A stretch of 64,000 nt of DNA from an uncultured virus (IMG/VR IMGVR_UViG_3300027782_000075) (taxonomy: Duplodnaviria > Heunggongvirae > Uroviricota > Caudoviricetes): the IMG/VR virus record IMGVR_UViG_3300027782_000075; one strand, 5' to 3'. Shown piece after piece: positions 1,362-33,815 of the stretch. The first letter of the stretch is position 1. Every line of letters starts with the position of its first letter. The translations under genes and the position numbers were made by a program. Under the pieces are notes generated by a model. It made no database searches. It saw only the letters and a list, made by a program, of their open reading frames with translations, and was not told the origin of the DNA.

Positions 1362-1415
1362 CGATAAAAGTTACATAGTTGTGATATTTATTGGTAAGTA
1401 AATTACCAATATACT

Positions 1416-1667
1416 ATGAAAAAATTCTTATCTCAGTTGTTCGATGACAACAACACAATCAATGAAAAAAGCGTCGTAGGGTTTATGGCGTTTGTAATGA
1501 TGACAGGATTCGCAATTGCGGATATTGTTACAGGAACTTTAGGTAAAGACCTAGTGATAAACGAATTCATCTTTAACGCCTTCCTATGGCTAGTTCTTGG
1601 TTCCTTCGGAATCGGGTCAGTCGACAAATGGATTAACAAAGGAAAGTCAGACCAAATCGAGGAGTAA
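1416..1667 (+). CDS. Small two-TM membrane protein, possible holin
   Basis: Two hydrophobic segments and a charged C-terminus. TATTTAT upstream and a terminator downstream. Confidence 0.5.
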   Translation: MKKFLSQLFDDNNTINEKSVVGFMAFVMMTGFAIADIVTGTLGKDLVINEFIFNAFLWLVLGSFGIGSVDKWINKGKSDQIEE

Positions 1668-4230: not shown

Positions 4231-5058
4231 TTATTTCAAAAGTGCGAAATACTCTTTGAAATGTTTGATTCTGTCAGAAATTCCTATGGTTCCGCCATTA
4301 ACTCTTTTGGTTACTGCTGTTACTGTAGCGTCATCCGCTCCTTTGTCACAAATTGCCCACAATTTGTTTGAATCAAAGAAGAATGCTGCAGATGCTAAAG
4401 GATATTTTGTTGCAACTAAATCTGGATTAGCAACTGTGTCTTCACCGATAAATTTAGCAAATTTTGTATAGTTGTCTTTACCAGTCAATTGGATATATCC
4501 ACGACCTCTAAACTTGAAACCTTCTTTTGTTGTTTCATCTCCATTACCCATTCTACTTCCATAAACTTTGGATGCGATTTTTTCAGGATTTTTAGCGTAA
4601 CCTTCTGCCAAGTTTCCAGGGAAATATTTTGGAAATATTTTTTTCAAACCATCCGCAGAATAATTTAGATTTTCTTGAATCGCTTTGAAACCAGCCGACT
4701 CATGTCCACACTGAGCTAAAAAGTGAGCCAATCTAAGTGGATTTGTAATGTTGAATTTCTTTGCCGCGTCAGGAATCTGAGCAATTACAGCATCAGGGAT
4801 ATGACCCTTCAGATTTTCTAACTTCAAAGGACCAGCATTAACAATCGGAGTTGATGGTTCAGTGATAAGTTGTTTAGTTCCAAACATCTTTGCCCAAGTC
4901 CCTTCACCAACAATACCGTCAGCAGTTAATCCATTAGACGATTGCCATTTTTTAACCGCAGCCTCTGTGCCAGAACCGAATACACCATCGGCTCCCAAAC
5001 CTAATTTTGCTTGGAGTTTTTTTACGTCTTCTCCTTTAGACCCAACTTTTAGTATCAT
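4231..5058 (-). CDS. Endolysin: peptidoglycan-binding domain plus GH19 lysozyme domain
   Basis: N-terminal DGVFGSGT..VKKWQ..GLTADGIVG. C-terminal FLAQCGHES, FRGRGYIQLTGKDNY and VTKRVNGG. Confidence 0.9.
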   Translation of the reverse strand: MILKVGSKGEDVKKLQAKLGLGADGVFGSGTEAAVKKWQSSNGLTADGIVGEGTWAKMFGTKQLITEPSTPIVNAGPLKLENLKGHIPDAVIAQIPDAAKKFNITNPLRLAHFLAQCGHESAGFKAIQENLNYSADGLKKIFPKYFPGNLAEGYAKNPEKIASKVYGSRMGNGDETTKEGFKFRGRGYIQLTGKDNYTKFAKFIGEDTVANPDLVATKYPLASAAFFFDSNKLWAICDKGADDATVTAVTKRVNGGTIGISDRIKHFKEYFALLK

Positions 5059-5181
5059 AGTAATTTATTTTATATTAATAAATATTGTCTAAAACCAATA
5101 AGATAATTTACCTTAACATAAACTAAAAATTTAGGACAAAATTAAATTTGGTGATATTTATGAATACCAAGATACTATCGA

Positions 5182-5676
5182 ATGAAAATTTTAACCCTTT
5201 TTATGGCGGGCATTATGCTATACATAATGCCTCACATCACCACAAATCTTACTGATGAAATATGGGTTGAATCTGTCGTAAACAAGATTCAAGTGGGAAA
5301 TCTCGCAGGAAATCGAAACTTAGAATTCGGTTTGAGAAATATCACAGAGGAATTTTTACAAGAAAAAAATTTCGATCTAAACCCTGACTCCAAACAAAAA
5401 CTATCTATTGAAATTGTCTACTTGGATGTATTAAAAACCAAGACGAATGTCTCTGTATTTCACAAAGACAGTGAATCTGTTGTAATACGTCTCAGAGGAG
5501 TTTTGAAGGTTGATGGAAAAAAAATCAAAGAAGTTATTGTTGAAGAAGAATCATCTGAGATTTCCATGTCAACACTAATTGTGGACAACGGAGGGAATTT
5601 CAATCAACAATCTTTGAGTAATGCGTTGAAAAAGGCTAGTGATACCTTGGTAACTAAACTATTTGAAACAAATTAA
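5182..5676 (+). CDS. Exported protein, first gene of the envelope operon
   Basis: N-terminal hydrophobic signal and an alpha/beta pattern. Confidence 0.6.
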   Translation: MKILTLFMAGIMLYIMPHITTNLTDEIWVESVVNKIQVGNLAGNRNLEFGLRNITEEFLQEKNFDLNPDSKQKLSIEIVYLDVLKTKTNVSVFHKDSESVVIRLRGVLKVDGKKIKEVIVEEESSEISMSTLIVDNGGNFNQQSLSNALKKASDTLVTKLFETN

Positions 5677-12689: not shown

Positions 12690-13310
12690 TTATTTTAATT
12701 TCTCTAAAACTCTCTTAACTGTTTCTGTTAAAGCCTGAGAACTCATCAATACAACACCTGACGCAATCAATCTTTCCGCAATCAAAATTGCCGCCTCATC
12801 GATATCTTGTGTTTCCATAATAACAGATTGAATGTCTGTAATAATAGGAATCATGAAACTATATGCTATGGTGTCTATAAATGATGAGGAACCAGTACCC
12901 ACAGAGGACATAAAATTTAAGAACGCTTCTTTCAACTGACTTCCTTTTCTTAATCCAACTTTGAAAATTTCTTCCAATCCCTCTTCTTTGATTACTGAAA
13001 ATAATTTCATGGACGGTCTTTTAGTTTCAAAAAATAATGAAAATGCTAAACCGGCTAAAACCAACATTCTTTGGTCTTCAGTTAAATCGAAATTTTGATT
13101 CCTTAAAAATTGGTCTAATGGAATCGCCATTCCACCCACAGCAGTACCCCAAGTTAGAAGCATTCTTAAATTAATGCCGTACGATTTGAATGCCCGATTT
13201 ACAATTTGTTTTGTAAATGTATTCAATTGTTTCATGTAGTTTCCAAGCATCGATTTTTCTTCTTCAGTAAGAAGTGCTCTTAGTTGAGATTCTGTAATTA
13301 AAAATTCCAT
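12690..13310 (-). CDS. Hypothetical protein, probable virion internal protein
   Basis: N-terminal LITESQ..LLTEE motif; TATTTAT upstream. Confidence 0.65.
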   Translation of the reverse strand: MEFLITESQLRALLTEEEKSMLGNYMKQLNTFTKQIVNRAFKSYGINLRMLLTWGTAVGGMAIPLDQFLRNQNFDLTEDQRMLVLAGLAFSLFFETKRPSMKLFSVIKEEGLEEIFKVGLRKGSQLKEAFLNFMSSVGTGSSSFIDTIAYSFMIPIITDIQSVIMETQDIDEAAILIAERLIASGVVLMSSQALTETVKRVLEKLK

Positions 13311-13343
13311 ATAACAATAAATATATTACTTATATTTATTGTT

Positions 13344-13571
13344 ATGAAAGGAACGTTGAATCCACCGTTAAAAGTCGGAGATAAAATTATATGTTATCAC
13401 TTGGAAGGAGAACTTGGAGTTCCTCCAGGAACATCAGGTAGAGTTACTAGTATTTCAAAAGATCCATTTGAGTTTGATTCGGATGAACAAATTATTGGTG
13501 TCGATTGGGAGAATGGAAGTAAACTAAGTATGATTAGTTCTACAGACGCTTGGAAAAAAATTAGTGAATAA
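13344..13571 (+). CDS. Small SH3-like hypothetical protein (DUF4314-like)
   Basis: Motifs VPPGTSGRV and VDWENGSKL. Confidence 0.55.
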   Translation: MKGTLNPPLKVGDKIICYHLEGELGVPPGTSGRVTSISKDPFEFDSDEQIIGVDWENGSKLSMISSTDAWKKISE

Positions 13572-14379: not shown

Positions 14380-15498
14380 TTAATTTGATAATGGGGCTTT
14401 TATGGCTTTATGTGATTGATAATTTAATAACTCGAAGCATTCTGGTCTATAAGACATGATTTTTTCGGTGAATGTTTTTTCTCCAAAATGTTCTTTTACT
14501 TTTTCATGTTGGTACCAATTTCTTTCCGTGATTTGAACTTTGGGCAAATCATAAGGTCTTCTATGCATTTGTTCTTTTGCTTGTTCAATATGGTTTGAAT
14601 ACAAATGAACATCACCTAAGTTTCCAATCAATTCATCAGGAATCATATTGACTTCTTTCGCAATTATTTCAAGTAACAGAGCATAAGAAGCAATATTGAA
14701 TGGTAACCCCAAGAATGTATCAACAGAACGTTGATTCCACATAAGAGAGATTGATCTTTTAGGAACAGGATATAATTTATCTATATCATCATGTTCAATG
14801 TTTGCCATCGGTAATCCAAAATCAAATGGGTCAAATGTATCATAAGTTTTTGCCGCTAAATCTAACCTTTCTCCAACCCGCAACTCTCTTGTATACATTT
14901 GAAATCCATAATGACAAGGTGGAAGAACCATTTCGTCTAATTGACCCACATTCCAAGCACTTACCATTAATCTTCTACTATCTGGATTTGTTTTAAGTTG
15001 TTCAATCAATAATCTAATTTGGTCTACATATATGGGGAAAGAGTCATTTGGTCCTACGCTATGCAATGTCCAATTTCTCCATTGTGCCCCATAAATTGGG
15101 CCCAAATCACCCCACTTCTTAGCAAACTCATCATCTGTTTTGATACGATTGATGAATTCTTTCTGTGTATGTGGTGTCAAATCTTCACCACAATCTTCTA
15201 CCATTGGTCTCCAATTAAACCAATATCGCTTATACGCATCTCCATCCCAAATATGACAATCATAATCCAATAAGAATTTGATATTAGTATCCCCACGTAG
15301 AAACCACAGGAGTTCCGTGACCATAGTTTTCCATGCCATCTTCTTTGTGGTTAGTAACGGAAACCCTTCACTCATCTTATGACGCATTTGTCTACCAAAA
15401 ACGGAAAGGGTACCAGTACCTGTTCTATCTTTTTTCTCAACACCATTATCTAAAATGTCTTTGAGTAGTTGTTGATATTGTCTTTCTATATTAATCAT
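14380..15498 (-). CDS. thyA: Thymidylate synthase
   Basis: Motifs DRTGTGT, ELLWFLRG, LPPCH, QRSVDTFLGLPFNIASY and HLYSNH. Confidence 0.97.
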   Translation of the reverse strand: MINIERQYQQLLKDILDNGVEKKDRTGTGTLSVFGRQMRHKMSEGFPLLTTKKMAWKTMVTELLWFLRGDTNIKFLLDYDCHIWDGDAYKRYWFNWRPMVEDCGEDLTPHTQKEFINRIKTDDEFAKKWGDLGPIYGAQWRNWTLHSVGPNDSFPIYVDQIRLLIEQLKTNPDSRRLMVSAWNVGQLDEMVLPPCHYGFQMYTRELRVGERLDLAAKTYDTFDPFDFGLPMANIEHDDIDKLYPVPKRSISLMWNQRSVDTFLGLPFNIASYALLLEIIAKEVNMIPDELIGNLGDVHLYSNHIEQAKEQMHRRPYDLPKVQITERNWYQHEKVKEHFGEKTFTEKIMSYRPECFELLNYQSHKAIKAPLSN

Positions 15499-17213: not shown

Positions 17214-18244
17214 AATGGTCTACTGTACTCCGGTTTTATTAATTTCCAAATAAATGGAGAAACGTCTTTCCCGTTCAACATACTGAATAATATTGATGGA
17301 TGGTCATATCCTTTCGCATTCTCAGCAAAATCCTTTTGTTCTAAATTATTTGATTTCAGTTCATTGAAGATTTCAGTGTAATCTTTGAGTATATTTTCAT
17401 ATCTGGCAACCAAATCTTTAACCGTAGTTTTCACCCAAGAATCAAATTCATCAGGGACTCTGTCCAACAATACATTCAAGTCCTTATTGTCTTTCAAATA
17501 TTCCCAAATGTCCACATTTGAAAACTCGGTCAATAATCTGTGAAGATAAACGTAATCTTCACCCTTTATCTTCATTCTAAGACCACTTCTGAATTTAACA
17601 ACATAACCCTCCCTTTCTTTGGAGATAGAGGATTTGAGGTTCTTATAATCTTGAATTCCGTCGTATTTTTTGATTACAGGTAATCCCGTTTCTTTATTTA
17701 TCAATAATAATGAATCATGTTCGAGTTCTTTGCCATTAGCATTACTAATCATCGACAAAACAACCAAAGATTCATCACTACCGTAATCACATACAATTCT
17801 ATTCTGAGGGTAGATTATTTCGACTAAAGTAGTATATCCTTTCGGGATAGGCTCCACATTATACTTCTCATCTAATATTTGTCTTGCTCTTATTGATTGT
17901 GAAGAAGTAAATGACCCTTTACTAGCGATAATCCATTTACCTTGATACCAAAACAAAATACCTAAAGATCCATCAAGTTTTTCATATACTTCGAAATCTT
18001 CGTTGGGAATTTCTTGAGGGGAATGTTCTTCCAAATTGAAAAACTTATCAAATGATTTTGCTATCACATTACCTTGATTGTCCAAAATTAATCCTCTACA
18101 ACTTTTGGTGATATTATCCCACAATTTTTCGTATTGGGTTTTTCTGGTGTAGTTGTATATAGATAAAGAAAGGGTTGGATGGTCATTTTTGACCACCAAA
18201 CCCTTTTCAATGTAATCATTCAATATGTTTAAGTCGAAGTTCAT
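17189..18244 (-). CDS. RNA ligase (T4 Rnl1-like)
   Basis: Motifs CRGLIL, FDKFFN, motif I EKLDGS, EGYVV and KIKGEDY. Confidence 0.88.
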   Translation of the reverse strand: MNFDLNILNDYIEKGLVVKNDHPTLSLSIYNYTRKTQYEKLWDNITKSCRGLILDNQGNVIAKSFDKFFNLEEHSPQEIPNEDFEVYEKLDGSLGILFWYQGKWIIASKGSFTSSQSIRARQILDEKYNVEPIPKGYTTLVEIIYPQNRIVCDYGSDESLVVLSMISNANGKELEHDSLLLINKETGLPVIKKYDGIQDYKNLKSSISKEREGYVVKFRSGLRMKIKGEDYVYLHRLLTEFSNVDIWEYLKDNKDLNVLLDRVPDEFDSWVKTTVKDLVARYENILKDYTEIFNELKSNNLEQKDFAENAKGYDHPSILFSMLNGKDVSPFIWKLIKPEYSRPFWQKEIES

Positions 18245-18444
18245 TTTTTTTCAGTACCCCTAAAGATACGAAAAAAAAGTAGATAAAACACAAGTGAAAT
18301 TAAAATTCCTCCCAAAATTGTCGAGATTGTCGAAACAAAAAAATTTGTAGATTCCGTCAATGGTATAAGAGAAAAAACTAAAAAGATTCCCAACAAAAGT
18401 GGTGGCAAAAATCTTTTGATTAAAATTACAATTTTTTTCGTCAT
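18241..18444 (-). CDS. Small two-TM protein
   Basis: Hydrophobic ORF in operon. Confidence 0.5.
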   Translation of the reverse strand: MTKKIVILIKRFLPPLLLGIFLVFSLIPLTESTNFFVSTISTILGGILISLVFYLLFFRIFRGTEKK

Positions 18445-18447
18445 AAT

Positions 18448-18672
18448 TTAATTTTGGATTAGCATGTTTGTATTAGAGACTGGAAATCTACCTACAGGTA
18501 CTCTTATCTCTCCTTCTTCACTTGCTTGTTTAACCATGACTTCGTAGTATGTGTCCAAAACTTTTACGGTTGGAACGTCTTGGAAAGTATAAAGAATTTT
18601 TGAATGATGTTCTCCTTCGTAAACTACGACGGATTTTGTTTTTGTGTTGAAAATTAGTGTTTGTAGTGCCAT
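18448..18672 (-). CDS. Hypothetical protein
   Basis: ORF in operon. Confidence 0.6.
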   Translation of the reverse strand: MALQTLIFNTKTKSVVVYEGEHHSKILYTFQDVPTVKVLDTYYEVMVKQASEEGEIRVPVGRFPVSNTNMLIQN

Positions 18673-18683
18673 ATTTTTTTATT

Positions 18684-18872
18684 TTAGTAATATTGTTTTT
18701 GTATAACTATTCCGTAAGCAAAATTATAAAAAGAAACATTAAGACCAAAGGCCGGAGTGTTTACTCCTGATTCCAAGAAGTAATATTGATCATACCAAAT
18801 AGATATACAGGGAATTAACCAATATTTTCCTATAACTTTTCTAAGTTTACTGTGATTTACTTTCCATTTCAT
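18684..18872 (-). CDS. Hypothetical protein
   Basis: ORF in operon. Confidence 0.45.
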   Translation of the reverse strand: MKWKVNHSKLRKVIGKYWLIPCISIWYDQYYFLESGVNTPAFGLNVSFYNFAYGIVIQKQYY

Positions 18873-18902
18873 ATTGTTCTTTTTTATAAAGATAAGAAAA
18901 AA

Positions 18903-19157
18903 TTACTCAGAAACCAAAAATACTGGATTTTGTTCACCAGCATAAAGCCCGATGATGTTATAATCAAAAAATTCCATCGCTTCAGTCATAGTCATTAAAT
19001 CTCTTTCACATAAAATGTTAAGGATTTTGTTTTTGGAATAAAGGATGCGAGGTCCGTTTCCGAACTCCTCAACAATCCCAATGATTGCCTCGTCAAGTCC
19101 ATCAAGGATGATGGCACCTTCAGCGTATTCGTGGATGTCGTAGTCGTTGATTGTCAT
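18903..19157 (-). CDS. Conserved hypothetical phage protein
   Basis: Motifs DGLDEAIIG and EFFDYNIIG.Y.GE..P. Confidence 0.7.
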   Translation of the reverse strand: MTINDYDIHEYAEGAIILDGLDEAIIGIVEEFGNGPRILYSKNKILNILCERDLMTMTEAMEFFDYNIIGLYAGEQNPVFLVSE

Positions 19158-19169
19158 AGTAGTTAAATA

Positions 19170-19244
19170 ACAAGTGAGCCCGTAAACTGAGGCGATAAAT
19201 AAATTACCAAGATACTATCGGATGAAAATACGGAACTCACTTGT
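19170..19244 (-). ncRNA. Hairpin leader or small RNA with loop antisense to late-gene start regions
   Basis: Stems ACAAGTGAG/CTCACTTGT and CCGTA/TACGG. 19205-19229 matches 5165-5189 at 24/25 nt. Confidence 0.6.
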
Positions 19245-19252
19245 ATATTACA

Positions 19253-19281
19253 ATAATAGATTTTCCACTTAAAATTGTCAA
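19253..19281 (-). promoter_or_regulatory. Promoter TTGACA-N17-TATTAT driving the minus-strand operon
   Basis: Consensus-like -35 and -10 elements with 17-bp spacing; start would fall at the hairpin base. Confidence 0.6.
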
Positions 19282-19329
19282 ATGAAAAAAATGAAAAAAT
19301 AAAAGTATTTATAAATAAAACTATTAGTT

Positions 19330-21033
19330 ATGAGAGGATACTTTGGATTAGGACAGTTGTCTGCTGCTGAGAAGTCAGATATTTTAGACCAACACAAAAG
19401 TTTGTATAATGGATACCAAACCATGCAACCACAGGTCTCAAACACTCAACCATTATATACTTACGATTTCGCTGGTGATAAAGACGGATTGGTGGTAAAC
19501 AACAAAGGTGAAGTAAAGAAATATACAAATATGGGAATTAACGAACAAGTTAACCAATCTACAGGTCCGTATGATGAATGTTTCATTTCACAAGGAATAC
19601 CTAAAGAAAAGATTCCTCAATTTTGTAAATCATGGGAAACTATGGGAAAGTGTGCAAGTGAAATGATGAAAGGGGAATTTTATAAGACTACCGAATTTAT
19701 GGATAAAGTTGATGCCGCACTTGATTGTATGTTTAAGAAAATCAGAGAGGAGAAAGACTATGGAATTAACGAACAAGTTGAATCCAAAGAAATGTGTGAG
19801 CAATGTGGAGGTCGAATGACCGAAGGCATTTGTGAACAATGTGGTGGAGGAGAAATGGAAGAAGCCACTGGTAAATTGGACGACATCTATGATGAGGAGG
19901 ATTTGAATCCAAGCGCAGGTTTTGACTACATCGAAGGACCATCCAATAGTATTGATACCTTTGAAAAAATGCACCACATGAAAAAAATAAAATCAGAAGG
20001 TAAATACGAAGACGATGATAATGAAGATGACGCAGTTGTAGGATCAGAAGACATGCAAATCGATTCAAGTGAAATGTATGAAGATGAGACAGATGACAAA
20101 CCTTATGAAAAAGGTAAAAGAGGTATGAAAGCATCCCGAGCAAGAGCTTCGTTCACTCCAACACCACAAGAAAATGAAATTCTAAATAATTTATTCGGAC
20201 AATATGGAGAAGATATTCCACCAATTGTAATCAGATACTTAAGAAAATTACCAAGAAAAACATTATTAAACCGTTTAGTTAAAGTAGGTCTTATTGATAA
20301 AGATTTATTACAGGGGAAAGAAACTATCGACGAACAAGGATATACAGGTGGTGGAAACGCTCCCGACATGGATATAAGTAACATCGAACCAGCTTACAAC
20401 TTTAGAAGTAACGGTCCTGATGAAGTTTATCCAACTGAAGGAGAAATGGAAGAACAAACTCCTGAGGATAATACGAGGTATAGAAGAAGAGGAATTACTT
20501 ATGACAACCTATTAAGTTTTATTGATTATGAAAAAACTCAATGGGATGCGTGTCATGATTTTAGTGATGAATTCGAATACGCTGACAACATTATTTCTTC
20601 GGCAATTGATAATTTCTTCGCTGAAACAGGACAAGATTATGAAAATGATGATCTTTTTGATGAATTACATGATATTTGTAAAGATTGGTTTGGAGAGGAG
20701 TTACTTTCAAGTTATTACGAAGAGTGCGGAGGTCAAGAAGAGGAAGAAGAAGAGGACTTCATGTTTATGGAATCAGCATTCGCAGATGAAATAGACGAAG
20801 TCGATGTATCAGGTTCTCAAGGTATTTACGGTGAAATGGAACCACCTTATGTTTTTGATCCCGAAGGACCTGGAAAAGCAGGACCATACCAAAGATCAAG
20901 TTATTACGAGGAAGAAGATGAGGATGAAGAATCCGAAGAAGATTTTGAACTTGATGAAGATTTGAAAGAATCTTTTATGGAACAAAAAAATAAAGTCATG
21001 AAAATGATGAATCGAATGAAAATAATAAAATAA
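19330..21033 (+). CDS. Acidic modular protein, probable head internal protein
   Basis: Repeated GINEQV, a CxxC-CxxC pair, acidic composition; TATTTAT at 19306. Confidence 0.7.
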   Translation: MRGYFGLGQLSAAEKSDILDQHKSLYNGYQTMQPQVSNTQPLYTYDFAGDKDGLVVNNKGEVKKYTNMGINEQVNQSTGPYDECFISQGIPKEKIPQFCKSWETMGKCASEMMKGEFYKTTEFMDKVDAALDCMFKKIREEKDYGINEQVESKEMCEQCGGRMTEGICEQCGGGEMEEATGKLDDIYDEEDLNPSAGFDYIEGPSNSIDTFEKMHHMKKIKSEGKYEDDDNEDDAVVGSEDMQIDSSEMYEDETDDKPYEKGKRGMKASRARASFTPTPQENEILNNLFGQYGEDIPPIVIRYLRKLPRKTLLNRLVKVGLIDKDLLQGKETIDEQGYTGGGNAPDMDISNIEPAYNFRSNGPDEVYPTEGEMEEQTPEDNTRYRRRGITYDNLLSFIDYEKTQWDACHDFSDEFEYADNIISSAIDNFFAETGQDYENDDLFDELHDICKDWFGEELLSSYYEECGGQEEEEEEDFMFMESAFADEIDEVDVSGSQGIYGEMEPPYVFDPEGPGKAGPYQRSSYYEEEDEDEESEEDFELDEDLKESFMEQKNKVMKMMNRMKIIK

Positions 21034-21131
21034 AAAAAACCCCTCCGAAACGAGGGGTTTTTTTATTAAATTATATGAAAAATATGACTTTTCATATATT
21101 TTTTAATATTTGTTTATAAATTGATATTGTT

Positions 21132-21958: not shown

Positions 21959-22006
21959 CCGCCAAATATAAAAAAAATTTTTTGATAACACAAAATATTT
22001 ATTGAT

Positions 22007-27172: not shown

Positions 27173-27247
27173 GCTCCTAAAGCATTGCTGGCGATGCACA
27201 TGACTTGTAATCATGATAACTTGGTTCGATTCCGAGTGGGAGCTCCA
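27173..27247 (+). tRNA. tRNA-Thr(TGT)
   Basis: Cloverleaf; CATGA-CTTGTAA-TCATG; encoded CCA. Confidence 0.9.
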
Positions 27248-27250
27248 ACA

Positions 27251-27426
27251 GTACTTACTACGCTACCCATAAGAACAGCGTCCCAGGGTAAGTCGTGTAC
27301 CTCGATGTTAACCGTAAGAACAACACAGAGGTTGTATCGTGATATAAGTGAATAGCCCAAGGTATAAGCTAAAATCACACCCCTAACCTCTATTCAAATG
27401 ACGATTTGATTATGTTAGGTTTTTTT
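27251..27426 (+). ncRNA. Candidate structured RNA with tandem hairpins sharing a 12-nt loop
   Basis: Loops ACCCATAAGAAC and AACCGTAAGAAC on different stems. Confidence 0.5.
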
Positions 27427-27514
27427 GGAGAGATGGCAGAGTTGGCCGATTGCACCTGACTTGAAATCAGGAGTACCTGTGAGGGTACCGTGGGTTCGAA
27501 TCCTACTCTCTCCT
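27427..27514 (+). tRNA. tRNA-Ser(TGA)
   Basis: CCTGA-CTTGAAA-TCAGG, long variable arm, GGTTCGAATCC. Confidence 0.92.
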
Positions 27515-27521
27515 CATCATA

Positions 27522-27616
27522 ATTGTGACGATTCGAAAGAATGACGGAACGGACGCTAAGAATGAAATGGAAACTGAAGGATTATCCTTGGAAACAAACC
27601 GTACAGACGTTACAAT
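27522..27616 (+). ncRNA. Candidate structured RNA, GGA-rich
   Basis: Closing stem ATTGTGACG/CGTTACAAT, a GAAA tetraloop hairpin and five GGA motifs. Confidence 0.4.
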
Positions 27617-27638
27617 CTTTTTCACAAATTAAATCATA

Positions 27639-27992
27639 ATGGCACATCCAAACTTACATGCAAAATCATCCGCCAAAAAGTTTGGTGGAAAACCTGAGGA
27701 CTACATTCATTTACATGAATGGTTAGACGAAACCAAGTCATGGTTTGGTGATTCCTTACATAGAATGTTTCGGCACCATAGTGAGGGGATATTCGAAATG
27801 GAAAAAAGGTTTGGTACCGAATTCAAAAACTCAGATGGAAAAACGGTTTATACTCGTTATGTTGGAGAACAACATATCAAGGAAGATTGTAATAACTACA
27901 TTCCATCAGCCAAAGAATGGGTTAACAACATGATGTCCAATCAAAGACCACAGTGGATGTTGAAGACCATTAAATTAGAATTCGAAGACTGA
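27639..27992 (+). CDS. DUF6915-like protein
   Basis: MAHP..HAKSSAKKFGG..EDY..LH.W.D; HR..RHHSEGIF. Confidence 0.75.
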   Translation: MAHPNLHAKSSAKKFGGKPEDYIHLHEWLDETKSWFGDSLHRMFRHHSEGIFEMEKRFGTEFKNSDGKTVYTRYVGEQHIKEDCNNYIPSAKEWVNNMMSNQRPQWMLKTIKLEFED

Positions 27993-28003
27993 TATTTATT
28001 TGT

Positions 28004-28702
28004 ATGTCACAAAATATATTAACACCAGAAGAAAAAAAATATTTAGGAAAAATATCAAGGTTTCTTAGATCGATGGGAATGAGATATGGAGAAATTCAAT
28101 TTGAAATGGAACCGGACCAAGAGGGAATTGCGTACAGTCCAAACGATTTTCCAACTCATTTTGAAAATAATTATACCGCAGAAATACCGGACGGCCTTGT
28201 ACCAATATTGAAAAAAATTATTGACTATGTTGATGATGATGGGTTATATAGCGAGGTACCTTATGATGGTTACCTCATTTATCAAAGATTTGACATTACA
28301 ATTAATGCTATGTCAGGAGAAATATCTTTAACACACTCCTATAGTTATCAAATTGAGGGAGGTTCACAAGGTATCGAATACGATGATATGATTGAAGAGT
28401 GGGAAGAAAAAGGAGTTTTCAATGATACCGAAATTCCTGAAGACAATTATTTGGTCTTGAAGTATAATGGAGGTGGAGATAGTGGATACATCGAATCGAA
28501 TTTTGAGAATGGAGAACCTGTACCAACCGAAGTAGAAGAATGGTGTTATCAACAATTGGAAGATAACTTCGCAGGCTGGGAGATAAATGAAGGATCTCAA
28601 GGTGAATTCCAATTTGATTTTAATGAAAAAACAGTTATATTATCACACGCATACAACATTGAAGAATCTAGATCCAACACACTGTGGGAAGAAGAATTTT
28701 AG
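28004..28702 (+). CDS. Acidic protein with DUF6878-like C-terminus
   Basis: Motifs YNGGGDSGYIE and GWEINEGSQG. Confidence 0.6.
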   Translation: MSQNILTPEEKKYLGKISRFLRSMGMRYGEIQFEMEPDQEGIAYSPNDFPTHFENNYTAEIPDGLVPILKKIIDYVDDDGLYSEVPYDGYLIYQRFDITINAMSGEISLTHSYSYQIEGGSQGIEYDDMIEEWEEKGVFNDTEIPEDNYLVLKYNGGGDSGYIESNFENGEPVPTEVEEWCYQQLEDNFAGWEINEGSQGEFQFDFNEKTVILSHAYNIEESRSNTLWEEEF

Positions 28703-28719
28703 AATGATTTATTAAATTT

Positions 28720-29370
28720 ATGGTGGAAACAACAATTATCAACGAAGATTTTAGAAACTGCGACATACCAACAGGATTAACAATAACCGACCCACCTTAT
28801 AATCAAGAATATTCATACAACGAATACAAAGACAAGTTAACTGAACAGGATTATATTGAGTTATTATCCAAAATCCCAACTCCTTGTGTCATTATTCATT
28901 ACCCAGAAGAAACAATCAACTTGTTACCAAAGGCAATAAATGATAAATGTGAACAGGTTGTTTGTTGGGTGTATAACTCCAACACAGGGAAACAAAGTCG
29001 ATTGATATCATGGTGGGGTTGTAAGCCGGACTTCAGGAAAGTCAGACAGGAATATAAAAATCTCAAAGACAAACGTATTCAAAAAAGAATTGCTGAAGGA
29101 AAGACTGGTGCCAAACTTTATGATTGGTGGGAAATTAATCAGGTAAAGAATGTCAGCAAAGAAAAAACCGAACACCCTTGTCAAATTCCTGAGGAAGTAA
29201 TCCGAAGAATTATTTTGACAACCGCACAACCAAATCAAACAATTATTGATGTGTTCGGTGGAAGTGGGACGACAAGTAAGGTAGCTCAAGAGTTGGGATT
29301 CAACTCAATTAGTTATGAAATCGATGAGAAGTATTGTGAAATTATGAAACATCGGGTTGAAAGTATCTGA
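28720..29370 (+). CDS. DNA methyltransferase (N6-A/N4-C, beta-type)
   Basis: TDPPY precedes HPCQIP and DVFGGSGTT. Confidence 0.9.
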   Translation: MVETTIINEDFRNCDIPTGLTITDPPYNQEYSYNEYKDKLTEQDYIELLSKIPTPCVIIHYPEETINLLPKAINDKCEQVVCWVYNSNTGKQSRLISWWGCKPDFRKVRQEYKNLKDKRIQKRIAEGKTGAKLYDWWEINQVKNVSKEKTEHPCQIPEEVIRRIILTTAQPNQTIIDVFGGSGTTSKVAQELGFNSISYEIDEKYCEIMKHRVESI

Positions 29371-29379
29371 AACTTTCAT

Positions 29380-29387
29380 TATATTTG
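29380..29387 (+). promoter_or_regulatory. Bacteroidota sigma-A -7 element TAnnTTTG (also at 26253, 30299, 30664, 33799, and 39081 on minus)
   Basis: Motif recurs upstream of RNA genes and early-type genes. Confidence 0.65.
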
Positions 29388-29396
29388 TAGAATAAT

Positions 29397-29717
29397 GTCC
29401 GGGTGATGAAATCGGTAGACATGCAAGACTTTAGAGGTAGACATGAATACTTTTATTAAAGTATTAAAGTTTACAAAATTGAGTGCCTGAGGGGAAACCT
29501 TCAGAGTAGAATTCCTCAAATTCGGTGAACCTTTTGAAATGGGAATACCGAGCGAAGCCCGAGAGGGAACGTGTAGAGACTAGACGGGGAACACCTAAAT
29601 CGAGAGATATGGTGAAGGTATAGTCCAGACCACAAACCGTGAGGGTAGTGAAAACTATAGTGGTAAGAAAATCTTGTGGCTTAGGCCGTGCGGGTTCAAG
29701 TCCCGCCCCGGATACCA
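29397..29717 (+). tRNA. trnL: tRNA-Leu(TAA) split by a group I intron (exons 29397-29431 and 29668-29717)
   Basis: Joined exons give CAAGA-CT T^AA AA-TCTTG, a Leu-type variable arm, T-arm and CCA. Confidence 0.9.
29432..29667 (+). mobile_element. Group I self-splicing intron (trnL-UAA type), no ORF
   Basis: P AAATTCGGTGAA, Q AATACCGAGC, R GTGTAGAGACTAGACGGG, S GAAGGTATAGTCC. Exon ends in U and intron ends in G. Confidence 0.9.
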
Positions 29718-29753
29718 AACACTATCGTTCTTTGGAATAAAGGAGAAAATTAT

Positions 29754-30005
29754 ATGGATTTAGTATCATTTATTTTAGGAATGTCTATAGTTGTGGTCAT
29801 TGCTGTGGCAGTGGTTGCGGTTATTGCTTTTGTTAGAGTGAATAAACAGAAGGAAGAAATTAAACAAATAAATCAGTTTCTCGCAAGAGAAATTGAAAAT
29901 CAAATGAGAGATCGTGATAGAATTATTGACGATATTTATCGAACAATCGATTCACGACTTGATAAACTTGAAAGTAGATTGAACGCCGCAAGGCATAAAG
30001 ATTAA
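29754..30005 (+). CDS. N-terminal TM coiled-coil protein
   Basis: Start at MDLVS with AAGGAG upstream; enclosed by a long inverted repeat. Confidence 0.65.
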   Translation: MDLVSFILGMSIVVVIAVAVVAVIAFVRVNKQKEEIKQINQFLAREIENQMRDRDRIIDDIYRTIDSRLDKLESRLNAARHKD

Positions 30006-30043
30006 ATAAAAACTTTCAAAGACGATAGTGTTATTCACATATT

Positions 30044-30205
30044 ATGTTCGGATTATTCAAGAAAAAAACAGAAAAAGAAAAATTACAGGAAACTTATGAG
30101 AAAATGATGGCAGATGCTTATAAATTATCTCATACAAACAGAACCGCATCTGACAAACTTCTGGCTGAAGCCGAAGAACTTGCGAAAAAAATATACGGTC
30201 AGTAA
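30044..30205 (+). CDS. Lacal_2735-family-like small protein (53 aa; not in ORF track)
   Basis: MFGLFKKKTEKEKLQETYEKMMADAYKLSHTNRTASDKLLAEAEELAKKIYGQ resembles the flavobacterial family from memory. Confidence 0.7.
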   Translation: MFGLFKKKTEKEKLQETYEKMMADAYKLSHTNRTASDKLLAEAEELAKKIYGQ

Positions 30206-30210
30206 TATTT

Positions 30211-30285
30211 GTCCCCGTAGCTCAGCTGGATAGTAGCGATTGCCTTCTAAGCAATAGGTCACACGTTCGAATCGTGTCGGGGATA
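30211..30285 (+). tRNA. tRNA-Arg(TCT)
   Basis: ATTGC-CTTCTAA-GCAAT; full cloverleaf. Confidence 0.92.
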
Positions 30286-30310
30286 CAAAATATTTCAGTA
30301 TATTTGTATT

Positions 30311-30399
30311 GTGATTGAGGAGCACGATTTAGATACACAAGCTCAATTACAAACTGGGTGACACGGGAACGATTCAGATACTAGTGTTACCCTTTTTTT
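30311..30399 (+). ncRNA. Candidate ~90-nt small RNA of two hairpins with shared ACGATTYAGATAC loop
   Basis: Own TATATTTG promoter; the second hairpin is followed by a U tract. Confidence 0.55.
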
Positions 30400-30468
30400 A
30401 TTAGATATCAGAATAAATAATTTTACAAAATAAAAATATTTCATACATTAGAAGTACTTATCAATACA

Positions 30469-30558
30469 ATGAGAACTACAAGTCAACATATTAACAGTAA
30501 TAGTCAACAAGAGAATTGTTGTTATGAAAGTATTTGCCCTGTAGTTCGGATGTCATAG
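30469..30558 (+). CDS. Putative attenuator leader peptide (29 aa)
   Basis: MRTTSQHINSNSQQENCCYESICPVVRMS*, overlapping alternative pairing segments. Confidence 0.55.
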   Translation: MRTTSQHINSNSQQENCCYESICPVVRMS

Positions 30559-30594
30559 AAAGTAATTTTTTAATTTAAGTTAAATTAAATTTTT

Positions 30595-30631
30595 AGACCC
30601 CGAACTCTTAAAAAAAGTTTGGGGTTTTTTT
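30595..30631 (+). terminator. Intrinsic terminator (attenuator 3:4 hairpin)
   Basis: AGACCCCGAACT/AGTTTGGGGTTT plus T run. Confidence 0.75.
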
Positions 30632-30683
30632 ATGACATGTTTTTGTTCTTTGAAATATTGTAGTATCTTTGTAAGACAAACAT

Positions 30684-30757
30684 GCTCCGGTCGTCTAATT
30701 GGTTAGGACATCCCCCTTTCACGGGGAAGCTTACGGGTTCGAGTCCCGTCCGGAGTA
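30684..30757 (+). tRNA. tRNA-Glu(TTC)
   Basis: TCCCC-CTTTCAC-GGGGA; cloverleaf. Confidence 0.92.
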
Positions 30758-30882
30758 CTGACACGAGAGGCAACCGAAGGCATACTAGACACTGTTTAGG
30801 CAATGGGAACGATCACACAGAATACCTCTCTCTCGTAGGTAAGTTTCAAGTTCTGTTGACTGTGGGGAAAGTCCCACTCTAT

Positions 30883-30971
30883 AGTCAGGTGGTGTAATGG
30901 TAGCACTCGGTGAAGTAGACGCAGTAATGTAGTCCCAATCCGTAGTACAGGTTCGAATCCTGTTCTTACTA
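30883..30971 (+). ncRNA. tRNA-like RNA 1 (AGTCAGG family), no canonical anticodon arm
   Basis: D-arm, T-arm ACAGG-TTCGAAT-CCTGT and acceptor-like stem; central arm ~35 nt. Confidence 0.6.
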
Positions 30972-30985
30972 CAAATAAAAAATAT

Positions 30986-31120
30986 ATGAAATGGATTATT
31001 AGACAATTTGGAAACGTATGGTGTTTATTTGTACATGGCTTTGTTTTAGATAAACACAAAATGCATAAAGCATATGGACCACAAGAATGTCAAAAATGTG
31101 GTAGGTGGTGGGATTTATAA
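30986..31120 (+). CDS. Small putative zinc-binding protein (44 aa; not in ORF track)
   Basis: MKWIIRQFGNVWCLFVHG...ECQKCGRWWDL*. Confidence 0.5.
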   Translation: MKWIIRQFGNVWCLFVHGFVLDKHKMHKAYGPQECQKCGRWWDL

Positions 31121-31127
31121 TAGTCAG

Positions 31128-31352
31128 GTGAAAAAATTAAAAGTTGTGGAAAAAGAAATAAGTAAAGAAACTGATGAGTTTATTGATAAATTAGACCATC
31201 TGTGTTGGGAACATGGCTTTGAAATTTGGCCAACTGACACTATTAACAAAAGAAATGAAGACGGCTCATATCCCACCTTTACTATTCATAATATAGGTAG
31301 TGGTGAAACAGTAAGATTGATATATGTCGATGGTGACGGAAGAGGTAAATAA
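31128..31352 (+). CDS. Hypothetical protein
   Basis: Likely GTG start inside an AGTCAGGTG copy. Confidence 0.45.
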   Translation: MKKLKVVEKEISKETDEFIDKLDHLCWEHGFEIWPTDTINKRNEDGSYPTFTIHNIGSGETVRLIYVDGDGRGK

Positions 31353-31359
31353 TTAGGCT

Positions 31360-31468
31360 AGTCAGGTGGCGGAATTGGTAGACGCTAGGGAGTTGGTACA
31401 AAAACTCTATCAGATGCATTGATAATGTACCTCATACATCATACAGGTTCGAATCCGGTTCTAACTAC
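31360..31468 (+). ncRNA. tRNA-like RNA 2 (AGTCAGG family) with extra central hairpins
   Basis: Leu-like D-arm GCGGAATTGGTAGACGC and GGTTCGAATCC. Confidence 0.6.
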
Positions 31469-31538
31469 GCAAAAAACAAATAAGATGGAGTTTCTTTACC
31501 CTTTCGAGGATGAGTTTTAGAAATCTAAATTATTATAT

Positions 31539-31610
31539 GGTGGCCGTAGCCTAGTGGGAGGGCGGAAGTTTGTGGCACTTCAGGTAAGAGTTCGATTCTC
31601 TTCGGTCACA
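31539..31610 (+). tRNA. tRNA-His(GTG)
   Basis: GAAGT-TTGTGGC-ACTTC; encoded G-1; A at position 73. Confidence 0.85.
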
Positions 31611-31614
31611 CAAC

Positions 31615-31682
31615 AGTCAGGTGGTGTAAATGGCAGCACACAGTAGTTAACTGAGGAGCGGGTTAGAAACCCGTCCTGACAC
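31615..31682 (+). ncRNA. tRNA-like RNA 3 (AGTCAGG family), shortened anticodon arm
   Basis: GTCAGG/CCTGAC stem, D-arm, CAG-TAGTTAA-CTG arm, T-loop TTAGAAA. Confidence 0.55.
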
Positions 31683-31691
31683 CTTATCAAT

Positions 31692-31765
31692 GGTCAGATA
31701 CCCAAGTGGCTTAAGGGGCTTGTCTGCAAAACAAGTATCCATCGGTTCGAATCCGATTCTGACCT
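31692..31765 (+). tRNA. tRNA-Cys(GCA)
   Basis: CTTGT-CTGCAAA-ACAAG; U73. Confidence 0.92.
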
Positions 31766-31783
31766 CATTTAATTAATTAAAAT

Positions 31784-32271: not shown

Positions 32272-32282
32272 CAAAATGTAAA

Positions 32283-33788: not shown

Positions 33789-33815
33789 GAAAACTTACTA
33801 TCTTTGTCGCGATTT

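What the first reader, a model, noticed from the sequence alone, without database searches (positions are those of the whole stretch)
19170..19281. Hairpin RNA whose loop is antisense to the start codon region of a gene 14 kb away
Seen: a minus-strand promoter (TTGACA-N17-TATTAT) starts at the base of a 75-nt hairpin. Bases 19205-19229 (TACCAAGATACTATCGGATGAAAAT) equal 5165-5189 at 24/25 positions, spanning the leader and ATG of the first envelope-operon gene (5182). Transcribed from the minus strand, the RNA is therefore complementary to that translation initiation region. A match of this length is not expected by chance in 64 kb. Inference: an early trans-acting antisense RNA, embedded in an operon leader, that silences a late operon.
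Basis: partly seen in the sequence, partly recalled or inferred. Interest (0 to 1): 0.85.

Follow-up and report, generated by a model that had tools for sequence, protein, structure and literature searches.

The report
Phage hairpin RNA antisense to lysis-gene leaders
A giant phage of freshwater Bacteroidota carries a small, conserved hairpin RNA gene whose loop is the mirror image of the start regions of two or three of the phage's own late genes, so it probably holds back their translation.

Summary
The 25-mer occurs twice (24 of 25 identical; none expected by chance). The 75-nt hairpin and the minus-strand promoter at its base are real.

The window belongs to a ~320-kb bS21-encoding jumbo phage of freshwater Bacteroidota. 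Of 79 related loci found through the neighbouring protein, 65 carry the element. It has a conserved -35/-10 promoter, a stem that keeps pairing through compensatory changes, an almost invariant loop, and in most clades a U-run. It fits the minus strand better than the plus strand. There is one copy per genome and no Rfam match.

The loop complements the predicted short leader and start codon of gene A (5182), of a second gene C (1416; small, two hydrophobic helices), and less well of the endolysin (5058, minus strand). These rank 1, 2 and 3 of 93 window genes and of 398 genes in a complete relative. Loop and targets change together in several clades. In the ten contigs tested, the C leader motif occurs only where the hairpin does.

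Best reading (about 0.6): an early, trans-acting antisense RNA from an operon leader that represses late, probably lysis-related, genes. Transcription, strand and repression are not shown. This is a new RNA family, a new variant of a known kind.

The parts
19276..19281 (-). -35 box (TTGACA) of the hairpin RNA / early-operon promoter
   Evidence: The TTGAC core is kept at the same spacing in most of the 35 distinct relatives viewed; the L067/L068/L073/L075 group reads TTTTAC.
19251..19258 (-). -10/-7 box (TATTAT followed by TG)
   Evidence: The first T and the last T of TAnnnT are invariant and the A is at least 90% conserved in alignment A1. The box also resembles the Bacteroidota TAnnTTTG type seen before other early-type genes.
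19170..19244 (-). 75-nt hairpin RNA; predicted 5' end at about 19245
   Evidence: Folds. Covariation. Single covariance-model hit per genome.
19229..19243 (-). 5' arm of the outer stem
   Evidence: Seven of 8 outer-helix pairs show compensatory changes.
19171..19184 (-). 3' arm of the outer stem
19189..19229 (-). 41-nt loop block, invariant in the window's clade. It is the union of the stretches complementary to C/E (about 19196-19218) and to A (19205-19229).
   Evidence: with direct reading.
19199..19214 (-). Predicted 16-nt apical loop, the part complementary to all targets (likely first contact)
   Evidence: Fold; inner stem 19215-19220 with 19193-19198.
19160..19169 (-). U-rich tract after the hairpin. 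It is weak here and is a run of about 5 to 11 U in most other clades. The start codon of the 84-aa gene follows closely.
   Evidence: Alignment A1.
18903..19157 (-). First gene of the downstream early operon (84 aa, phrog_13182, function unknown)
   Evidence: In relatives without the hairpin the same promoter sits about 7 nt before this gene.
5154..5161 (+). Late-type promoter-like box (ATATTTAT) of gene A
   Evidence: The same box precedes the portal and prohead protease genes.
5165..5189 (+). Target site A: predicted whole 5' leader plus the ATG (5182) of a 164-aa protein with an N-terminal hydrophobic anchor
   Evidence: Rank 1 of 93 start regions.
1384..1391 (+). Late-type promoter-like box of gene C
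1395..1418 (+). Target site C: leader and ATG (1416) of an 83-aa protein with two hydrophobic helices. Positions 1395-1417 match 21 of 23 positions of 19196-19218.
   Evidence: Rank 2 of 93.
5050..5069 (-). Probable target site E: leader and ATG (5058-5056) of the endolysin, matching 18 of 20 positions of 19198-19217
   Evidence: Rank 3 of 93. Facultative: some close relatives lack it.

Best explanation
Window 19170-19244, read on the minus strand, is a small structured regulatory RNA. A conserved host-type (early) promoter starts transcription at the base of a long hairpin. The hairpin is followed by a U-rich tract and then, almost at once, by the first gene of an early operon (RNA ligase, thymidylate synthase and others). 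The RNA therefore exists as a short terminated or processed species, as the 5' leader of the operon mRNA, or as both.

Its nearly invariant loop is complementary to the short 5' leaders and start codons of phage genes driven by the late-type ATATTTAT box. These are gene A (5182, an N-terminally anchored 164-aa protein beside the endolysin), gene C (1416, an 83-aa two-helix membrane protein with holin-like topology) and, in many lineages, the endolysin itself (5058, minus strand).

Inferred mechanism: the apical loop contacts the 5' end of these mRNAs. Pairing then spreads over 15-25 nt, covers the start codon, and blocks ribosome entry or triggers cleavage. Translation of these late, probably lysis-related, genes is held back until late mRNA outnumbers the early-made RNA.

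Shown here: the sequence features, their conservation, stem covariation, strand asymmetry, one copy per genome, the ranking of targets, and co-variation and co-occurrence of loop and targets. Inferred: transcription, the RNA ends, base pairing in vivo, the direction and sign of regulation, and the lysis roles of A and C.
For: (1) Conservation. The element is found in 65 of 79 loci recovered through the neighbouring 567-aa protein, not through the motif. It sits at a fixed 116-127 nt from that gene.

(2) Promoter. The first T and the last T of the TAnnnT box are invariant and the A is at least 90% conserved. The TTGAC -35 core is kept in most of the 35 sequences viewed.

(3) Structure. RNAalifold finds 6 of 7 outer pairs with compensatory changes. 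For my 17-pair structure, 90.4% of cells pair against 83.1% in shuffles (0 of 500 as high) and 37-46% when partners are slid. Seven of 8 outer-helix pairs have double changes.

(4) Strand. The minus-sense RNA folds better in 28 of 35 distinct sequences (mean -21.4 against -18.1 kcal/mol; 96 against 30 G-U pairs). A U-run follows the stem on the minus strand in most clades.

(5) Copy number. A covariance model finds one strong hit per genome in 1.02 Mb (the window and three complete relatives). The only weak extra hits of note are the antisense of sites C and A.

(6) Targets. Loop against start-region duplex scans give A, C and the endolysin as ranks 1, 2 and 3 of 93 in the window and of 398 in G002. 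In the distant G003 the endolysin, C and A are three of the top 4 of 398, although those genes are dispersed over 33 kb. In a whole-genome scan of G002, site A is the best non-self site.

(7) Co-variation of loop and A. One clade has a 2-nt insertion in both. Another has the same substitution at motif position 8 plus a shared downstream heptamer. A third has the same substitution at position 15. Over 9 genomes of different clades, each loop matches its own genome's A better than other genomes' A (sum 150 against 125.8 +/- 6.7; 23 of 20000 permutations as high).

(8) Co-variation of loop and endolysin. Window 19199 and 5068 are A/A in 5 contigs and G/G in 3.

(9) Natural loss. G004, a complete genome with no homolog of A or of the 701-aa gene, has four substitutions exactly in the A-pairing part of the loop. 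It keeps the C/endolysin-pairing part, with a 13-nt run to C.

(10) Co-occurrence. Of 10 contigs with a C homolog, the 2 whose C leader carries the motif have the hairpin. The 8 without the motif, 2 of them complete genomes, do not.

(11) Modularity. Relatives without the hairpin have the same promoter about 7 nt before the 84-aa gene. The hairpin is a separable module, not a requirement of the operon.
Against: No direct evidence of transcription, strand or RNA ends. The four metatranscriptome runs laid were unstranded contigs, and none bridges 19204-19331.

The duplex with A has a conserved C-A mismatch at motif position 17 in the window's clade (16 of 17 informative loci there), which is not a wobble. 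The matches to C and E also include non-wobble mismatches.

Co-variation of identical letters at two loci is equally expected if one protein reads the same DNA or RNA sequence, or if short-patch gene conversion homogenises the copies. The relatedness of the genomes inflates the permutation test.

The motif contains two 4+1+4 palindromes, a feature typical of sites for protein dimers.

The U-tract in the window's own clade is weak, so a discrete about 85-nt RNA may not be released there.

The endolysin match is only about 3 SD from the mean and is absent in two close relatives (L321, L322).

The strand test may be helped by the flanking U-run, which can wobble-pair only in the minus sense.

The lysis roles of A and C rest on topology and position alone.
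Confidence: 0.62

Rival explanations
1. Same RNA pairing, opposite logic. The abundant late mRNAs of A, C and E pair with the hairpin in the leader of the early operon. This shuts that operon off, or changes termination at the U-run. The hairpin is then the regulated site rather than the regulator.
For: The hairpin sits directly before the start codon of the early operon's first gene. One RNA-library contig of a relative ends in adapter sequence exactly at 19204, the left border of the 25-mer and inside the apical loop. That could be a cleavage product of such a duplex.
Against: Relatives run the same operon from the same promoter without the hairpin, so the operon does not need it. Three separate genes each keep a dedicated leader that matches the loop, which is the pattern of targets of one regulator. 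The evidence is a single contig.
Confidence: 0.12
2. The shared sequence is a DNA operator, or an RNA site readable in both senses because of its palindromes, for one regulatory protein. That protein co-regulates the three late promoters and the early leader. The hairpin at site B has a separate role.
For: The motif contains two 4+1+4 palindromes (read). At A, C and E it lies just downstream of the ATATTTAT box, where a repressor would sit. Identical changes at the two loci fit a common reader as well as they fit pairing.
Against: The targets carry different sub-segments of the motif: A lacks the first palindrome, and C and E lack the second. The distance from the promoter box to the motif varies (3, 4 and 10 nt). 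What is constant is overlap with the start codon. This reading does not explain the covarying stem, the minus-strand G-U asymmetry or the U-run. No candidate protein was identified.
Confidence: 0.12
3. The hairpin is a cis-acting leader only: a 5' stabiliser or attenuator of the early operon. Its likeness to the A, C and E leaders is a duplication or gene-conversion scar with no trans function.
For: 5'-terminal hairpins and promoter-proximal terminators are common cis elements. The loci lie within 18 kb of each other in the window.
Against: The loop is far more conserved than the stem across lineages whose neighbouring protein is only 37-50% identical. The likeness persists where the loci are dispersed and inverted (G003, G007, G008, G010). 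The A-specific part of the loop decays only where A is lost. The motif and the hairpin co-occur.
Confidence: 0.06
4. The 25-mer is a plus-strand promoter for a phage-specific polymerase or factor.
For: It is a long, highly conserved, few-copy motif in one orientation, upstream of plus-strand genes. This superficially resembles single-subunit polymerase promoters (recalled, not tested).
Against: There are only 2-3 copies per ~320-kb genome. The motif overlaps or abuts the start codons of A, C and E. The 567-aa gene has its own ATATTTAT box next to its ATG and keeps it where the hairpin is absent. No role is left for the covarying stem.
Confidence: 0.03

Closest known systems
P22 sar RNA (antisense to the ant start region)
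   Same: A small phage RNA, about 70 nt, that pairs with the translation start region of a phage gene and blocks its expression (table passage of review PMC12197685 seen; further details recalled).
   Different: By my recollection sar is transcribed from the strand opposite its own target, so it is fully complementary and cis-encoded. Here the RNA gene lies 14-18 kb from its targets (up to 44 kb in G003), matches only 15-25 nt, and has several targets.
P1/P7 C4 RNA and P4 CI RNA (immunity RNAs)
   Same: Phage antisense RNAs cut out of an operon leader.
   Different: Those act on sites in the same transcript, control lysogenic immunity, and are matured by RNase P. Here the targets are separate late transcripts of a large phage with no sign of lysogeny in the window. 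Processing was not tested.
PAK_P4as15, antisense RNA at the endolysin gene of Pseudomonas phage PAK_P4
   Same: A phage antisense RNA proposed to repress endolysin translation and delay lysis (passages of PMC12197685; PMC5563952 seen only in the listing).
   Different: It is cis-encoded, about 550 nt, and overlaps its target. The present RNA is a trans-encoded, about 80-nt hairpin with covarying structure and up to three targets.
StxS / lambda 6S-type RNA made by termination just downstream of a phage promoter
   Same: The architecture is a promoter followed at once by a terminator-like hairpin. This gives a short RNA with regulatory activity, with read-through into the operon (abstract of PMC7547250 in the listing).
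   Different: By my recollection StxS comes from the late promoter, acts on host mRNAs and uses Hfq. Here the promoter is of the early host type, the targets are the phage's own late genes, and the complementarity is long.
Kissing-loop antisense RNAs of plasmids (CopA, RNA I, Sok)
   Same: A stem-loop presents the antisense sequence in an exposed loop, which starts pairing with the target start region (recalled).
   Different: Those are cis-encoded with full complementarity. Loop motifs such as YUNR were not tested here.

Membership tests
Trans-encoded base-pairing regulatory RNA (general kind) | Own promoter giving a discrete transcript | tested here: met
   Consensus match. The -35 core is conserved in most relatives, and the -10 T and T are invariant with the A at least 90% conserved, at fixed spacing. 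This is prediction only; there is no transcript data.
Trans-encoded base-pairing regulatory RNA (general kind) | Defined 3' end (intrinsic terminator or processing) | tested here: inconclusive
   A hairpin plus a run of about 5 to 11 U occurs in most clades. The tract is interrupted in the window's clade, and the simple terminator scan found none at 18800-19500.
Trans-encoded base-pairing regulatory RNA (general kind) | Conserved secondary structure supported by covariation | tested here: met
   7 of 8 outer pairs with double changes, and 0 of 500 shuffles reach the observed pairing or covariation score.
Trans-encoded base-pairing regulatory RNA (general kind) | Complementarity to the translation start region of genes encoded elsewhere | tested here: met
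   A, C and the endolysin are ranks 1-3 of 93 and of 398, and three of the top 4 of 398.
Trans-encoded base-pairing regulatory RNA (general kind) | Regulator and target co-vary or co-occur | tested here: met
   The changes are identical letters, which does not by itself prove RNA pairing.
Trans-encoded base-pairing regulatory RNA (general kind) | RNA is expressed from the predicted strand and changes target expression | not testable with these tools
   Only unstranded contigs of RNA libraries were available.
Any curated Rfam family | Match to a covariance model | tested here: not met
   No hit overlapping 19170-19244 at E up to 10 in a search of 18600-19800.
Cis-encoded antisense RNA (sar, OOP, PAK_P4as15 type) | Transcribed opposite its own target gene | tested here: not met
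   The targets lie about 14 and 18 kb away in the window, and up to 44 kb away and on either strand in relatives.
P1 C4 / P4 CI immunity RNAs | Targets in the same transcript; RNase P maturation; immunity function | not tested
   The targets here are preceded by their own promoter boxes. Maturation and function could not be tested.
Plain intrinsic terminator / attenuator | Short GC-rich stem, small loop, U-run; loop sequence free to vary | tested here: not met
   The loop is about 45 nt and is the most conserved part. The U-run is present in most clades.

The most novel reading that the evidence does not exclude
The hairpin RNA is an RNA-stoichiometry clock for lysis in a host that lacks Shine-Dalgarno-led initiation. 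A stable pool of the RNA is made early from a host-type promoter. That pool must be titrated by the rising late mRNAs of a holin-like protein, the endolysin and a membrane-anchored partner before these can be translated. Burst timing would then be set by an sRNA threshold rather than by holin protein kinetics alone. The same duplexes may feed back on the early operon.
Probability: 0.25. Interest if true: 0.85.

Novelty: new variant of a known kind. Interest (0 to 1): 0.74.

Why it matters
Regulatory RNAs that phages encode to control their own late genes in trans are scarcely documented. The best-known phage antisense RNAs are cis-encoded or belong to temperate immunity systems. Very little is known about small-RNA regulation in Bacteroidota or their viruses.

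This is a conserved RNA family with clear structure, a readable set of targets, and natural experiments in which the loop changes with the target or decays when the target is lost. That makes base-pairing regulation in uncultivated jumbo phages directly testable. Tests could use stranded lake metatranscriptomes, or reporters in a Flavobacterium host.

If the targets are truly the lysis genes, the RNA would be a new kind of lysis timer. It also gives annotation pipelines a new covariance model and a candidate late-promoter box for this phage group.

Tried and rejected
- Phage collection search. BLAST of 18000-21000 found nothing. BLAST of 4200-7200 found only distant endolysin matches.
- Own assembly. 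It is not held. I used G001, the same genome from about window 15462 onward, and relatives.
- Earlier findings.
- Rfam. No family matches the hairpin.
- Family and Atlas searches for A, C and the 84-aa protein. Nothing informative came back. The only leads are weak: clusters where 38% carry DUF2644 and 18% carry Lipoprotein_16.
- Metatranscriptomes. Four RNA runs hold parts of 18000-20500 as unstranded contigs of relatives. There is no cover bridging 19204-19331 and no strand information, so nothing can be said about expression. The stops at about 19331 in three runs may simply be assembly breaks at variable sequence.
- A second target for the variant loop of G004. Pattern search found nothing convincing. 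The later duplex scan gave the C homolog and the endolysin-like gene.
- Presence/absence test in five contigs without the hairpin (G011-G015). It was uninformative: they are 19-47% fragments with no C homolog, and motif matches occur at control frequency. G023 (complete, no hairpin) has no detectable C homolog either.
- A faulty pattern. The pattern was one base short for the commoner loop variant and missed my positive controls. It was replaced by a gapped pattern.
- Recombination (att-like) sites. Rejected because the two copies are direct in some genomes and inverted in others.
- An inner minus-strand promoter inside the loop. This was suggested by the end at 19204 and a partial resemblance to a -7 box. 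I did not adopt it: there is no upstream element, the idea would not fit site C, and it rests on one contig.
The counts given (C: 32 of 53 distinct, 49 of 79 loci; endolysin: 14 of 56 distinct, 17 of 80 loci) are my reading of the printed outputs.
- A failed script. One search failed on a coding error and was rerun.

Full report
**Observation**

Allowing 3 mismatches, nothing else in the window matches, and none of 100 shuffles gave two matches. The inverted repeat 19170-19184 / 19229-19244 folds well on either strand (z about -4; 0 of 200 shuffles as good), with the 25-mer in its large loop. The minus-strand TTGACA-N17-TATTAT match (11 of 12) ends about 7 nt before the hairpin. The ATG at 5182 starts a 164-aa frame.

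**What genome this is**

Identifiable genes in the window include:
- an endolysin (4231-5058, minus strand), thymidylate synthase and a T4 RnlA-like RNA ligase;
- portal, prohead protease, large terminase and major head protein;
- 12 tRNA genes.

The nearest held record, G001, is the same genome from about window 15462 onward (100% identity) and is rated 28% complete. Complete relatives are 309-326 kb. G001, G002, G003 and G006 encode ribosomal protein bS21. This fits the bS21-encoding jumbo phages of freshwater Bacteroidetes described in PMC9723584 (abstract and passages read).

Two promoter-like boxes recur before genes:
- A Bacteroidota-type TAnnTTTG box precedes early-type genes such as a Lon-like protease, HNH endonucleases and a ClpP-like protease.
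- An ATATTTAT box lies 4-30 nt before the start codons of many genes, including the portal and prohead protease genes.

I take the ATATTTAT box to be the late promoter. That is an inference.

**The hairpin is a conserved, structured, minus-strand element**

To avoid selecting on the motif, I collected relatives through the neighbouring 567-aa protein (79 loci).
- 65 loci carry the element, at a constant 116-127 nt from that gene.
- 7 have no match, one of them (L035) because almost no upstream DNA is held.
- 7 gave only spurious matches.

The 65 loci give 37 distinct sequences. I aligned 34 of these with the window, leaving out L029, L037 and L084 as near-duplicates.

Loop. It is nearly invariant even where the protein is only 37-50% identical.

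Stem. It differs from clade to clade but keeps pairing.
- RNAalifold finds 6 of 7 outer pairs with compensatory changes.
- For a 17-pair structure that I specified, 90.4% of cells pair against 83.1% in shuffles (0 of 500 as high) and 37-46% when partners are slid.
- Seven of 8 outer pairs show double changes; the inner stem hardly varies.

Strand. On the minus strand the first T and the last T of the -10 box are invariant and the A is at least 90% conserved. The TTGAC -35 core is kept in most sequences, the L067/L068/L073/L075 group reading TTTTAC. In most clades a run of about 5 to 11 U follows the stem, and the start codon of the 84-aa gene follows shortly after. The minus-sense RNA folds better in 28 of 35 sequences (mean -21.4 against -18.1 kcal/mol; 96 against 30 G-U pairs). 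The U-run may contribute to that asymmetry.

Copy number and family. A covariance model (R1) finds one strong hit in each of the window, G002, G003 and G004 (1.02 Mb in all). Those sequences, or near-identical ones, were in the training set, so the informative result is that there are no further copies. The weak extra hits of note lie on the antisense of sites C and A. Rfam has no match.

Modularity. In eight hairpin-less loci that I viewed, the same promoter sits about 7 nt before the 84-aa gene. A ninth, L064, has a different arrangement. The hairpin is therefore a separable module inserted into the leader.

**The loop has more than one target**

A 2-mismatch search showed a third, partial copy at 1406-1418. 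Read in context, the leader and ATG of an 83-aa gene (C, 1416) match 19196-19218 at 21 of 23 positions. This uses the 5' part of the invariant loop block, which gene A does not use.

The leader and ATG of the endolysin (5069-5050, minus strand) match 19198-19217 at 18 of 20 positions. Its start codon falls in the middle of the match.

All three genes have an ATATTTAT box 3, 4 or 10 nt before the matching stretch. If transcription starts about 5 nt after the box, each whole leader of about 16-20 nt, plus the ATG, is covered by the complementarity. That spacing is inferred from the many genes whose ATG lies 4 nt after the box.

Unbiased duplex scans of the loop against the -30..+20 region of every crudely called gene gave:

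| Genome | Genes scanned | Result |
|---|---|---|
| Window | 93 (mean -11.4, sd 4.7) | A -36.5, C -28.1, endolysin -25.1: ranks 1, 2, 3 |
| G002 | 398 | same order: -40.4, -28.1, -24.2 |
| G003 (distant) | 398 | endolysin-like gene and C homolog tie for first (-24.5), an unrelated 152-aa gene third, A homolog fourth (-23.5) |

In G003 these genes are spread over 33 kb and lie up to 44 kb from the hairpin. A 50-nt window scan of all of G002 put site A first among non-self sites (-41.7 against a background maximum of -35.4).

Conservation of each target site in protein-based collections:
- Site A: all 30 informative of 38 loci keep the 15-nt core at 13-15 of 15 positions, 2-4 nt before the ATG.
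- Site C: by my reading, 32 of 53 distinct upstream sequences (49 of 79 loci) carry the leader. The more distant C homologs do not.
- Endolysin: 14 of 56 distinct sequences (17 of 80 loci) carry both halves of the match. Two close relatives (L321, L322) do not. This target is facultative.

What the targets are:
- C has two hydrophobic segments and a charged tail.
- A has one N-terminal hydrophobic segment.
- The endolysin has none.
- Neither A nor C has a family assignment.

'Holin-like' and 'lysis-related' are therefore inferences from topology and neighbourhood.

**Loop and targets change together**

1. In G010 both the loop and site A have a 2-nt insertion after motif position 12. Other contigs of that loop type (G007, G008 and the L068-L074 loci) carry the insertion in the loop.
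2. In the most divergent clade (G009) both have the same substitution at position 8 and share a downstream heptamer not seen elsewhere.
3. In G016 both have the same substitution at position 15.
4. In the window's clade the match extends to 24 of 25 positions and is kept in all 17 informative loci, while the stem beside it varies.
5. Window 19199 and its counterpart in the endolysin leader (5068) are A/A in five contigs and G/G in three. C keeps G there, which would still wobble-pair.
6. G004, a complete genome, has no homolog of A or of the 701-aa gene. It has four adjacent substitutions in exactly the A-pairing part of the loop. It keeps the part shared with C (a 13-nt run) and with the endolysin-like gene (a 12-nt run).
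7. Across nine genomes of different clades, each loop matches its own genome's site A better than other genomes' (sum 150 against 125.8 +/- 6.7; 23 of 20000 permutations as high). Shared ancestry makes this less than nine independent events.
8. Of ten contigs with a C homolog, the two whose leader has the motif contain the hairpin. The eight without the motif, two of them complete genomes, do not. One of those eight has a 3-mismatch match that I take as chance.
9. The endolysin genes on two contigs without the hairpin, and in the complete hairpin-less genome G023, lack the motif.

Results against a simple picture:
- The A duplex has a conserved C-A mismatch at position 17.
- In the 3300027973/4 contigs, site A differs from the loop by a small internal bulge.
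- In G007 and G008 the second motif copy lies 22 nt before a different gene.

**Expression**

Twenty-three RNA runs hold small shares of 18000-20500. The four best were laid, but they are unstranded contigs of relatives. They show presence in RNA libraries only.

One contig (run X2, depth 17) covers 18706-19204 and then runs into adapter sequence exactly at the left border of the 25-mer, inside the apical loop. This may be a processing site or a reverse-transcription stop. One contig in one run is a hint only.

**Mechanism and rivals**

The reading that explains all features is an early-made hairpin RNA, free or as the operon leader, whose exposed loop pairs with the 5' ends of the A, C and endolysin mRNAs across their start codons. 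The features it accounts for are:
- the promoter;
- the covarying stem and the strand bias;
- the U-run;
- the single copy per genome;
- a loop block that is the union of three complementarities;
- the co-variation, loss and co-occurrence patterns.

I put this at about 0.62. Repression of translation is the likeliest outcome.

The same pairing could instead serve late shut-off of the early operon (0.12). A protein reading the shared sequence cannot be excluded, because identical changes at two loci fit it as well and the motif holds two palindromes. That rival does not explain the RNA-level features or the different sub-segments carried by the targets (0.12). A cis-only leader with a duplication scar (0.06) and a plus-strand promoter (0.03) fit poorly.

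**Comparison with what is known**

Searches of the held literature found no description of such an RNA. The searches were:
- 'phage-encoded / small RNA / endolysin / antisense';
- 'antisense RNA / holin / phage / lysis timing';
- 'phage / trans-acting / small RNA / late genes / jumbo';
- 'jumbo phage / Flavobacterium / freshwater'.

The bS21-phage paper does not mention promoters, small RNAs or antisense RNA (0 occurrences of each term). Its supplements were not examined.

Nearest relatives in kind:
- P22 sar and PAK_P4as15 (review passages);
- the promoter-proximal terminated StxS RNA (abstract in a listing);
- the P1 C4 and P4 CI RNAs, from memory.

None combines trans-encoding at a distance, several own late targets and this architecture. 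I therefore file it as a new RNA family and a new variant of the antisense-regulator kind.

**Limits**

- All gene calls for the scans were crude: ATG-started ORFs of at least 50 aa.
- The duplex energies ignore accessibility.
- Promoter classes and transcript starts are inferred.
- Many relatives are genome fragments.

Noticed in passing
window-wide, e.g. 13333-13340, 22000-22003 region, 28000 region, 44867-44873, 19306-19317: An ATATTTAT-type box precedes about a quarter of the crudely called genes. In at least 8 of them it ends only 4 nt before the ATG, which predicts leaderless late mRNAs. This may bear on why these phages carry their own bS21.
   Followed up: partly
window e.g. 3733-3770 (-), 4140-4180 (-), 21100-21131, 30660-30681, 43702-43740 (-): Bacteroidota-type TAnnTTTG boxes sit before early-type genes (Lon-like protease, HNH endonucleases, ClpP-like protease). 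This gives a second promoter class and supports a Bacteroidota host.
   Followed up: partly
window about 55260-55451 (-): A ribosomal protein bS21 gene (Pfam PF01165 match at G001:39829-39981, which maps here). It ties the phage to the published bS21 jumbo phages of freshwater Bacteroidetes.
   Followed up: partly
window 27173-34462 (+): A cluster of 12 tRNA genes (Thr, Ser x2, Arg, Glu, Tyr, His, Cys, Trp, Gln, Gly, Ile), interspersed with HNH endonuclease and methyltransferase genes.
   Followed up: no
window 1993-3132 (-): A gene pair: a cREC_REC 'cyclic-phosphate processing receiver' domain protein next to a calcineurin-like metallophosphoesterase. It is possibly a nucleotide-signal-degrading counter-defence pair.
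   Followed up: no
window 19204/19205: One metatranscriptome contig of a relative (run X2) ends in adapter sequence exactly here, inside the apical loop at the border of the 25-mer. It may mark a processing or cleavage site of the hairpin RNA.
   Followed up: partly
window 14380-15498 (-): The thymidylate synthase is 372 aa against a 266-position Pfam profile, matched end to end. It therefore carries about 100 extra residues internally.
   Followed up: no
window 19552-19781: An RNA-library contig of a relative (run X4) skips 228 nt inside the 567-aa gene. Homologues of this protein match over very different lengths, so the gene has a length-variable middle part.
   Followed up: no
window 13311-13343: A short divergent intergenic region between 12690-13310 (-) and 13344-13571 (+) is nearly palindromic. 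It has an ATATTTAT-type box facing each way, each 4-6 nt from its ATG.
   Followed up: no
L174 (G007:50240) and L176 (G008:27191): In these relatives the second copy of the motif lies 22 nt before a different gene (product begins MATRK...) rather than an A homolog. The set of targets may differ between clades.
   Followed up: no
G003:219734-220192 (+): A 152-aa gene ranks third of 398 in the loop against start-region scan of G003. It may be a further clade-specific target or a chance match.
   Followed up: no
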